A stretch of DNA of 22,129 nucleotides from a virus (lineage: Duplodnaviria > Heunggongvirae > Uroviricota > Caudoviricetes). How positions within the stretch are numbered: position 1 is the first letter of the stretch; each line of letters begins with the position of its first letter. The stretch is taken from IMG/VR virus record IMGVR_UViG_2526164668_000016, positions 1-22,129 of that record; one strand, written 5' to 3'. Below are positions 18,926-19,007 of this stretch, in pieces. Below the pieces are notes generated by a model, which saw only the letters and a list, made by a program, of their open reading frames with translations, had not been told where the DNA came from and did not search any database. A program made the position numbers and the translations under genes.

Positions 18926-19007
18926 CCGCCACTAGCTCATCAGGAAAGAGCAGACGACACGATAACAGGGTTGTTGGTGCGGGGTTCGAGTCCTCGATGG
19001 CGGTCCA
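18926..19007 (+). tRNA. tRNA-like element with non-canonical anticodon arm (possible tRNA pseudogene or atypical argN-like tRNA)
   Basis: 82 nt; acceptor stem (6 bp plus one mismatch), D-arm and T-arm (GGTTCGAGTCC) fold canonically and a 3' CCA is present, but the segment in between folds only as a 6-bp stem with 11-nt loop and no assignable anticodon. Confidence 0.35.

What the first reader, a model, noticed from the sequence alone, without database searches (positions are those of the whole stretch)
18926..19007. tRNA-like element with intact acceptor, D and T arms but no canonical anticodon arm
Between the ileZ-like tRNA and tRNA-Arg(UCU), where Stx phages carry argN, there is an 82-nt element ending in CCA. 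It has a good acceptor stem, D-arm and T-arm, but the central part folds only as a 6-bp stem with an 11-nt loop and no clear anticodon. It may be a decayed tRNA, a tRNA with an expanded loop, or a tRNA-derived regulatory or attachment element.
Basis: seen in the sequence. Interest (0 to 1): 0.4.

Follow-up and report, generated by a model that had tools for sequence, protein, structure and literature searches.

The report
Broken argN tRNA gene in prophage
The 82-base element is a real tRNA-shaped leftover of the prophage arginine-tRNA gene argN whose anticodon arm has been replaced by unrelated sequence, so it is most likely a harmless tRNA pseudogene, common in E. coli prophages and ordinary rather than a new kind of RNA.

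Summary
Window 18926-19007 (+) has an acceptor stem (6 of 7 pairs), a D arm, a T arm and an encoded CCA, but no canonical anticodon arm. ARAGORN and the Rfam tRNA model do not call it. RefSeq/PGAP annotates exactly these 82 nt as "tRNA-OTHER" in an identical genome.

It is the positional and sequence homologue of argN, the tRNA-Arg(UCG) gene of Stx and lambdoid phages. The 5' 26 nt and 3' 29 nt match canonical argN almost perfectly. The 28-nt centre is unrelated to it.

This odd allele fills the middle slot in 30 of 119 ileZ-X-argO loci sampled from IMG/VR. Its centre occurs in at least 1232 of 5426 complete E. coli genomes. In 29 of the 30 sampled copies the T-loop is also wrecked. Only 74 genomes keep an intact T arm, as here. 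The window copy is a recombinant mosaic with a C7.A66 mismatch.

I found no compensatory changes, no donor sequence, no linked gene and no sRNA complementarity.

Best reading: an argN pseudogene carried between two functional tRNAs and probably co-transcribed with them, but unable to decode. Interest is low.

The parts
18810..18838 (+). Sigma-70-like promoter (TTGATT-17-TATTAT) about 10 nt upstream of the first tRNA. It is the candidate promoter of the ileZ-X-argO transcription unit.
   Evidence: Consensus scan. This is a single match at about the chance rate, so it is a candidate only.
18849..18924 (+). ileZ-like tRNA with anticodon CAU. PGAP annotates it as tRNA-Ile. It looks functional.
   Evidence: ARAGORN; Rfam tRNA 72.5 bits; PGAP tRNA-Ile.
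18926..19007 (+). The element: an 82-nt argN-derived tRNA-like pseudogene, annotated 'tRNA-OTHER' by PGAP.
18926..18951 (+). The 5' acceptor strand (18926-18932), U8 and A9, and the D arm (18935-18951). This part is homologous to argN at 24/26. The C at 18932 (C7) is the variant seen in PPompW, whose acceptor 3' strand (shared with Stx2a_F349) supplies a G at 66 to pair with it.
18952..18979 (+). The central 28-nt module AGACGACACGATAACAGGGTTGTTGGTG, which replaces the anticodon arm and variable loop of argN. It has no canonical anticodon loop.
   Evidence: It is unrelated to the canonical arm. It was found only in E. coli lambdoid contexts.
18980..18996 (+). An intact T arm, CGGGG-TTCGAGT-CCTCG. 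It is identical to that of a canonical argN allele group.
18997..19007 (+). The 3' acceptor strand ATGGCGG, discriminator T and encoded CCA. A66 (18997) is mismatched with C7.
19021..19097 (+). argO-like tRNA-Arg(UCU). It looks functional but carries a T3.C70 mismatch in this lineage.
   Evidence: ARAGORN. Rfam scores it 62.1 bits against 68-72 bits in relatives.
19110..19137 (+). An intrinsic-terminator-like hairpin (8 pairs) followed by a T run. It is the probable end of the tRNA transcription unit.

Best explanation
The element is a pseudogene allele of argN. argN is the tRNA-Arg(UCG) gene that sits between ileZ and argO in the late region of Stx and other lambdoid phages.

In one ancestral event, whose source is unknown, the anticodon arm and variable loop were replaced by an unrelated 28-nt segment. 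The acceptor, D and T arms were left in place. That allele then spread among E. coli lambdoid prophages by recombination. In most copies it decayed further in the T-loop.

The window copy is a rare recombinant. It combines a 5' part of the PPompW type, the odd centre, and the intact T arm and 3' end of a canonical argN allele. That is why it still looks tRNA-like, and why tRNAscan-SE/PGAP flags it as 'tRNA-OTHER'.

Inferred, not shown: it is co-transcribed with ileZ and argO from the upstream promoter-like site to the downstream terminator. Because the acceptor/T-arm minihelix and the D/T elbow nucleotides are present, RNase P and the 3' trimming enzymes probably cut it out as an ~82-nt RNA. 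It lacks an anticodon loop and the ArgRS determinant C35, so it cannot be charged as tRNA-Arg or decode.

It persists because it lies 1 nt and 13 nt from two useful tRNAs, so a clean deletion is unlikely. At most it serves as a processing spacer.
For: 1. Homology. The 5' 26 nt (24/26) and 3' 29 nt (29/29) match canonical argN alleles, and the position between ileZ and argO is the same.

2. Loss of the defining feature. ARAGORN makes no call at default settings. Its relaxed modes give only an implausible Leu(UAA) with a broken D arm, or Cys(ACA) with a 4-nt 'intron'. The Rfam tRNA model scores canonical argN at 43 bits, but no odd allele reaches E<=1. PGAP gives no isotype.

3. Further decay in sister copies. 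In an IMG/VR sample chosen only by the flanking tRNAs, 30 of 119 loci carry the odd allele. Of those, 29 also have a non-tRNA T-loop (GCGGGT) with a G run that varies between 5, 6 and 12. In complete E. coli genomes the centre occurs in >=1232 of 5426, but centre plus intact T arm occurs in only 74.

4. Mosaicism without selection for pairing. C7 belongs with a G66 partner in the PPompW allele. Here it faces A66 from a canonical-type 3' half.

5. No structural covariation. The three centre variants (ACGATAACAGG x23, ACCATAACAGG x6, GCGATAACAGG x1) include none that is compensatory. The G-to-C variant breaks the thermodynamically preferred hairpin.

6. Slot 2 is the least constrained gene of the cluster even when canonical. 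Nucleotide diversity (pi) is 0.073 for the anticodon arm and 0.128 for the T arm, against 0.016 for ileZ and 0.047 for argO. Slot 2 also occurs as Lys(UUU) and Arg(UCU) variants.

7. Recent and narrow origin. The module was found in one representative genome of GTDB, an E. coli, and only in E. coli lambdoid contexts among phages and plasmids.
Against: The odd allele is very common: about a quarter of ileZ-X-argO loci, and at least 23% of complete E. coli genomes.

Its 28-nt centre is nearly invariant (pi 0.013, 2 segregating sites). It nevertheless sits on several recombinant backgrounds whose adjacent spacer is highly variable (pi 0.15). A young single-origin haplotype explains this, but purifying selection on the centre is not excluded.

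The origin of the 28-nt replacement is unexplained.

No expression data could be examined. tRNAscan-SE itself could not be run.
Confidence: 0.78

Rival explanations
1. It is a non-decoding but functional tRNA-like RNA. The altered central hairpin would make it a decoy or inhibitor of a tRNA-targeting defence nuclease, or of a tRNA-binding enzyme, or a sponge for a small RNA.
For: The allele is frequent and its centre is almost invariant across recombinant backgrounds. The D/T elbow and the acceptor minihelix are intact in the window copy. Phage tRNAs with altered anticodon stems are known to counter nucleases such as P2 OLD (PMC12445682). tRNA anticodon nucleases are encoded by lambdoid prophages (PMC13043305). 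An anti-sRNA, AgvB, lies 1.1 kb downstream.
Against: Of 30 sampled copies, 29 have lost the T-loop, so the tRNA shape is not being preserved. There are no compensatory changes, and one common variant breaks the best hairpin. Predicted duplexes with GcvB, AgvB, STnc100, isrK and C4 are no better than shuffles. No particular neighbouring gene travels with the allele. The window copy carries an acceptor mismatch.
Confidence: 0.07
2. It is kept as a processing spacer. Its tRNA-like ends would give RNase P and the 3' trimming enzymes the cuts needed to release the ileZ 3' end and the argO 5' end. Selection would then act only on the acceptor/T-arm minihelix, not on decoding.
For: The element starts 1 nt after the CCA of ileZ and ends 13 nt before argO, inside one promoter-to-terminator unit. 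Among the odd alleles the acceptor strands vary little.
Against: RNase P cleavage at argO and exonucleolytic trimming of ileZ do not need a middle tRNA. Most copies have a damaged T-loop, and one copy (L038) has lost the 3' end and the spacer altogether. This was not tested directly.
Confidence: 0.1
3. It is a working tRNA with an unusual anticodon arm. Examples would be an extended 8-bp stem with loop GAUAACA read as Leu(UAA), or an expanded-loop frameshift or recoding tRNA.
For: ARAGORN at lowered thresholds reports tRNA-Leu(taa), and PGAP calls it a tRNA of undetermined type. The CCA is encoded, and the D and T arms are intact.
Against: Every candidate 7-nt loop lacks U33 and a purine at 37. 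The relaxed ARAGORN fold has to break the D arm. Rfam's tRNA model gives no hit. Most sister copies lack a T-loop. By general knowledge, expanded-loop suppressor tRNAs have 8- or 9-nt anticodon loops; I know of none with an 11-nt loop.
Confidence: 0.03
4. It is a DNA-level element: an attachment site for another mobile element, or a protein-binding site embedded in a former tRNA gene.
For: tRNA genes are common integration targets. Prophage-in-prophage integration is documented in these E. coli lineages (PMC8112680).
Against: The attB-in-prophage sites described in that paper derive from yecE, ykgJ/ecpE and ompW, not from tRNAs. None of the 37 odd loci showed an insertion at the element. The module has no second copy in the window.
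Confidence: 0.02

Closest known systems
argN, the tRNA-Arg(UCG) gene of the ileZ-argN-argO cluster upstream of stx in 933W-type Stx phages (annotated in AP012530; named by Plunkett et al. 1999, from my own knowledge)
   Same: It occupies the same slot between ileZ and argO. The acceptor strands, D arm, T arm, discriminator U and CCA are nearly identical.
   Different: The anticodon stem-loop and variable loop (22 nt) are replaced by an unrelated 28-nt segment. There is no UCG anticodon, the length is 82 nt instead of 77, and ARAGORN and Rfam do not call it.
The unannotated ileZ-argO interval of phage phiP27 (AJ298298) and phage mEp460, and the equivalent interval of O157:H7 and O145:H28 prophages
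   Same: They carry the same odd central module, 100% identical over 37 nt.
   Different: phiP27 has an 8-nt D loop, a G.G mismatch in the T stem and a 6-nt longer spacer. The mEp460-type and EHEC copies have a degenerate T-loop (GCGGGT or CCGGGT) and are not annotated at all. The window copy keeps a canonical T arm.
tRNA pseudogenes, or 'tRNA-OTHER' (undetermined isotype) calls, in RefSeq/PGAP annotation
   Same: PGAP annotates exactly this 82-nt interval as tRNA-OTHER in the identical genome, and the same allele in almost all of the 40 listed records among the 74 genomes that carry it.
   Different: The label says nothing about origin. Here the origin (argN) and the nature of the lesion (replacement of the anticodon arm) are worked out.
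Phage tRNAs with altered anticodon stems that escape tRNA-cleaving defence nucleases, for example phage tRNA-Thr against P2 OLD (PMC12445682)
   Same: It is a phage-borne tRNA-shaped gene whose difference from the norm lies in the anticodon arm.
   Different: Those tRNAs keep a canonical 7-nt loop and anticodon and still decode. This element has neither, and most copies have also lost the T-loop.

Membership tests
tRNA (Rfam RF00005 / canonical cloverleaf) | A 7-bp acceptor stem, a discriminator base and a 3' CCA | tested here: met
   CCGCCAC / ATGGCGG gives 6 Watson-Crick pairs plus C7.A66, followed by T and CCA. The sister allele L006 has all 7 pairs.
tRNA (Rfam RF00005 / canonical cloverleaf) | A D arm with A14, G18, G19 and A21, and a T arm with T54-T55-C56 and A58 | tested here: met
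   GCTC-ATCAGGAAA-GAGC and CGGGG-TTCGAGT-CCTCG, read. This is not met in 29 of 30 sampled sister copies.
tRNA (Rfam RF00005 / canonical cloverleaf) | A 5-bp anticodon stem with a 7-nt loop carrying U33 and a purine at 37 | tested here: not met
   The options are a 6-bp stem with an 11-nt loop, an 8-bp stem with loop GAUAACA (A33, C37), or a 9-bp hairpin with a triloop.
tRNA (Rfam RF00005 / canonical cloverleaf) | A score above threshold with tRNA detectors | tested here: not met
   ARAGORN at default settings makes no call. There is no RF00005 hit at E<=10, and the only hit is tRNA-Sec at 13.1 bits against a gathering score of 47. tRNAscan-SE was not run here. Its result is visible only through PGAP's 'tRNA-OTHER'.
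argN (Stx-phage tRNA-Arg UCG) | Position between ileZ and argO, and sequence homology | tested here: met
   Alignment. Segment identities are 24/26 and 29/29.
argN (Stx-phage tRNA-Arg UCG) | Anticodon UCG with C35, the ArgRS identity element by established knowledge | tested here: not met
   The central module has no such loop.
tRNA pseudogene | Clear homology to a functional tRNA gene, loss of an essential feature, further degenerative changes in allelic copies, and no compensatory evolution | tested here: met
tRNA pseudogene | No functional, aminoacylated product | not testable with these tools
   This needs a northern blot, tRNA-seq or a charging assay.
Anti-sRNA / sRNA sponge (AgvB-like, 3'ETS-like) | Significant complementarity to a partner sRNA seed | tested here: not met
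   RNAduplex against GcvB, AgvB, STnc100, isrK and C4. The fraction of shuffles doing as well or better was 0.15-0.64.

The most novel reading that the evidence does not exclude
The odd allele would be a selected, non-decoding RNA rather than a dead gene. Its invariant 28-nt central hairpin, carried on a tRNA scaffold and transcribed with the late-region tRNAs, would act as a decoy or inhibitor for a tRNA-directed host or prophage nuclease, or for another RNA-binding factor. That would explain why it has spread to about a quarter of E. coli lambdoid tRNA clusters.
Probability: 0.06. Interest if true: 0.6.

Novelty: new member of a known kind. Interest (0 to 1): 0.15.

Why it matters
Mostly it matters for annotation. 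It explains a recurrent 'tRNA-OTHER' call and an unannotated ~100-nt gap between ileZ and argO in more than a thousand E. coli genomes, including phiP27, mEp460 and the O157:H7 and O145:H28 genomes examined here. Both are the same argN-derived pseudogene.

It also shows that the middle gene of the Stx-phage tRNA trio is the dispensable, fast-changing one. It occurs as Arg-UCG, Arg-UCU, Lys-UUU and the dead allele. This bears on claims that these tRNAs are needed for expression of stx or of phage late genes.

If the low-probability functional reading were true, it would be an example of a tRNA scaffold reused as a non-decoding phage RNA.

Tried and rejected
- ARAGORN with lowered thresholds and with introns allowed. 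It gave Leu(taa) with a disrupted D arm, or Cys(aca) with a 4-nt 'intron'. I rejected both as artefacts of forcing a fit.
- Permissive Rfam scan. It returned only sub-threshold noise: tRNA-Sec at 13.1 bits, and a YrlA hit at 18.8 bits that spans two genes.
- Search for a donor of the 28-nt module. The window with up to 3 mismatches gave nothing. GTDB species representatives gave a single match, in an E. coli representative genome. Phages and plasmids by blastn gave only lambdoid E. coli contexts plus two chance-level partial hits. No donor was found, and the module is not an inversion of the canonical arm or a simple mutational derivative of it.
- sRNA-sponge idea, prompted by an 8-mer (CGAUAACA) shared with AgvB and a GUUGUUG shared with the GcvB seed. 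Duplex energies were no better than shuffles.
- Attachment-site idea. The published attB-in-prophage sites are unrelated to tRNAs.
- Linkage to a particular neighbouring gene. The allele sits in at least 4 upstream and at least 2 downstream contexts, and its commonest context is simply one phage lineage.
- Diversity comparison as a test of constraint. It was uninformative, because the module has a single recent origin while the flanking polymorphism is old and has been recombined.
- Literature. The searchable library has no paper that mentions ileZ at all, and none that pairs argN with argO. The phiP27 and 933W genome papers are not held.

Full report
**1. What is in the sequence**

Window 18849-19097 holds a compact cluster on the + strand. 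ARAGORN finds a tRNA with anticodon CAU at 18849-18924 and tRNA-Arg(UCU) at 19021-19097. Rfam's tRNA model scores them 72.5 and 62.1 bits. Neither tool calls anything in the 96 nt between them.

Read directly it is:

CCGCCAC-TA-GCTC-ATCAGGAAA-GAGC-[AGACGACACGATAACAGGGTTGTTGGTG]-CGGGG-TTCGAGT-CCTCG-ATGGCGG-T-CCA

- The acceptor stem has six Watson-Crick pairs plus a C7.A66 mismatch.
- The D arm has A14, G18, G19 and A21.
- The T arm has T54, T55, C56 and A58.
- CCA is encoded.

More stably, they form a 9-bp bulged hairpin with an AGG triloop (-5.2 against -3.2 kcal/mol for the arm alone). No version has a 7-nt loop with U33 and a purine at 37.

**2. Detectors**

- A permissive Rfam scan gives no RF00005 hit. 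It gives only tRNA-Sec at 13.1 bits, E=9.
- ARAGORN reports something only when its threshold is lowered or introns are allowed. It then gives Leu(taa) with a broken D arm, or Cys(aca) with a 4-nt 'intron'. Neither is credible.
- The whole-element MFE is no better than shuffles (z = -0.66). For the window copy the cloverleaf (-18.9 kcal/mol) is well above the MFE (-25.8).
- The identical 271 bp occur in E. coli OkiPb01716. There PGAP annotates a 'tRNA-OTHER' whose coordinates map exactly to 18926-19007.

So the element is already recorded in public annotation as a tRNA of undetermined type.

**3. Homology**

I aligned the cluster with phage records. The slot between ileZ and argO is occupied as follows:

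- In Stx2 phages, by argN, a 77-nt tRNA-Arg(UCG).
- In PPompW phages, by a 76-nt tRNA-Lys(UUU).
- In phiP27 and mEp460, by the same odd sequence as here, which is unannotated in those records.

The window element matches canonical argN alleles at 24/26 positions in its 5' part and 29/29 in its 3' part. The 28-nt centre is unalignable to the 22-nt anticodon arm plus variable loop of argN.

The tRNA-like arms are therefore inherited from argN, and the lesion is a replacement of the anticodon arm. I found no donor for the replacement:

- There is no second copy in the window, even with 3 mismatches allowed.
- The only match among GTDB species representatives is in the E. coli representative.
- Phages and plasmids give only E. 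coli lambdoid contexts.

**4. Population picture**

I scanned IMG/VR with a pattern anchored only in the 3' end of ileZ and the 5' end of argO. It returned 119 loci:

| Slot-2 allele | Loci | Called by ARAGORN |
|---|---|---|
| argN-like | 87 | 85 |
| Lys(UUU) | 2 | 2 |
| Odd allele | 30 | 0 |

Of the 30 odd alleles, 29 also have a non-tRNA T-loop (CGGGG-GCGGGT-CCCCG or close variants). The G run in it varies between 5, 6 and 12. Only one keeps TTCGAGT.

In 5426 complete E. coli genomes, the central 37 nt occur in at least 1232. This is an undercount, because megablast misses the ACCATAAC variant. The centre joined to an intact T arm occurs in only 74 genomes. Nearly all of the 40 listed are annotated tRNA-OTHER. 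The copies examined in EHEC O157:H7 and O145:H28 prophages are unannotated. The O145:H28 copy carries the decayed-T-loop form, and both sit in the same gene context as the window.

**5. The window copy is a mosaic**

Its 1-nt spacer and its CCGCCAC strand are of the PPompW type, where C7 pairs with G66. Its T arm, 3' acceptor strand and downstream spacer are identical, or 1 nt different, to a canonical argN allele group in which A66 pairs with T7. The result is C7.A66.

A sister allele (L006, strain 2011C-4315) has T7-A66 and perfect arms. Recombination has thus shuffled segments without regard to pairing. The 'intact' look of the window copy is an accident of which segments it inherited.

**6. 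Tests for a retained function**

- *Covariation.* The centre has only three variants (23, 6 and 1 copies). None is compensatory, and the G-to-C variant breaks the preferred hairpin.
- *Diversity.* Among 37 odd loci the centre has nucleotide diversity (pi) 0.013. That is similar to ileZ (0.015), and far below the adjacent spacer (0.150) and the flanks (~0.25). Taken alone, this would suggest constraint. But the module has a single origin, while the flanking variation is old polymorphism shared with canonical alleles and recombined next to it. The comparison cannot separate youth from selection.
- *Canonical argN for comparison.* It is the most polymorphic of the three genes, with pi 0.073 in the anticodon arm and 0.128 in the T arm, against 0.016 for ileZ and 0.047 for argO. 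That fits relaxed selection on this slot.
- *Linkage.* The allele occurs in at least four upstream and at least two downstream contexts, with no constant partner gene.
- *sRNA pairing.* Predicted duplexes with GcvB, AgvB, STnc100, isrK and C4 are not better than shuffles.
- *Attachment site.* The published attB sites inside these prophages are not tRNA-derived.

**7. Mechanism**

A promoter-like site (18810-18838) and a terminator-like hairpin with a T run (19110-19137) bracket the three genes. The following steps are inferred, not shown. The element is transcribed with ileZ and argO. Because the acceptor/T-arm minihelix and the elbow nucleotides are present, RNase P and the 3' trimming enzymes probably release an ~82-nt RNA. 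This RNA has no anticodon loop and lacks C35, the main ArgRS determinant by established knowledge of tRNA identity. It therefore cannot act as tRNA-Arg.

It most likely persists because it lies 1 nt and 13 nt from two selected tRNAs, so clean loss is rare. A minor role as a processing spacer is possible but untested.

**8. Comparison with what is known, and verdict**

The closest known entity is argN of the ileZ-argN-argO cluster. The element passes the position and homology tests and fails the anticodon test. It is therefore an argN-derived pseudogene and not an argN.

Against the tRNA family definition it meets the acceptor, D, T and CCA criteria. It fails the anticodon-arm and detector-score criteria.

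The kind, a tRNA pseudogene inside a prophage tRNA cluster, is well known. Automated annotation already flags the element. I found no paper describing this allele, though the library does not hold the relevant phage genome papers.

I rate it a new member of a known kind, of low interest. The one unexplained aspect is the source of the 28-nt replacement, together with the high frequency of the allele. That leaves a small probability (~6%) that the central hairpin has a function of its own.

Noticed in passing
window 19021-19097 (position 19023): The argO-like tRNA-Arg(UCU) of this prophage has G3 changed to T, which gives a T3.C70 mismatch in the acceptor stem. Rfam scores it 62.1 bits against 68-72 bits for relatives. 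The same change is in L005 and L006. It suggests the whole tRNA cluster of this prophage lineage is under relaxed selection.
   Followed up: partly
window 19867-20060 (+) and 20062-20123 (-): An STnc100 sRNA (142.7 bits) lies directly next to a full-length AgvB anti-GcvB sRNA (88.7 bits) on the opposite strand. They sit about 0.9-1.1 kb downstream of the tRNA cluster, between DUF3927 and the SASA/NanS-p-like esterase gene.
   Followed up: no
window 11085-11161 and 11186-11273 (+): Rfam finds an isrK Hfq-binding RNA (57.6 bits) followed by a C4 antisense RNA (85 bits). This sRNA pair lies about 7.5 kb upstream of the tRNA cluster, elsewhere in the window.
   Followed up: no
L002 382-457 (PPompW_132418); L028 (IMG/VR): The same slot holds a tRNA-Lys(UUU) allele in PPompW phages. 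It keeps the argN-type acceptor, lacks one base in the D stem, and gets no Rfam tRNA hit at E<=1. One IMG/VR locus holds an Arg(UCU) point variant (CTTCTAA). The anticodon of slot 2 therefore switches between lineages.
   Followed up: partly
L003 382-458 (Stx2a_F349 argN): The annotated 933W-type argN has a G3.U70 pair and a U7.G66 pair in its acceptor stem, an A.C mismatch in the T stem and discriminator U. It scores only 43 bits on the Rfam tRNA model. G3:U70 is the classical AlaRS identity determinant, so its charging specificity may deserve a look.
   Followed up: no
L101, L044, L062, L127 and others (T-loop region of odd alleles): The degenerate T-loop of the odd allele contains a G run whose length varies between copies (5, 6 and 12 G). 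This looks like slipped-strand variation in unconstrained sequence.
   Followed up: partly
L038 620-739: One IMG/VR locus has a deletion that removes the CCA end of the odd element and the whole spacer. It fuses the element to the 5' end of argO (...GATGGCGGTCGTTG...).
   Followed up: no
window 18107-18820 and 19195-19862: The tRNA cluster is flanked upstream by a 237-aa helix-turn-helix (AraC-like) regulator gene. Downstream lie a TerB-family gene and a DUF3927 gene. The O157:H7 TR01 and O145:H28 prophages share the HTH-tRNA-TerB arrangement (DUF3927 was also seen in TR01), but phiP27 and mEp460 have different arrangements.
   Followed up: partly
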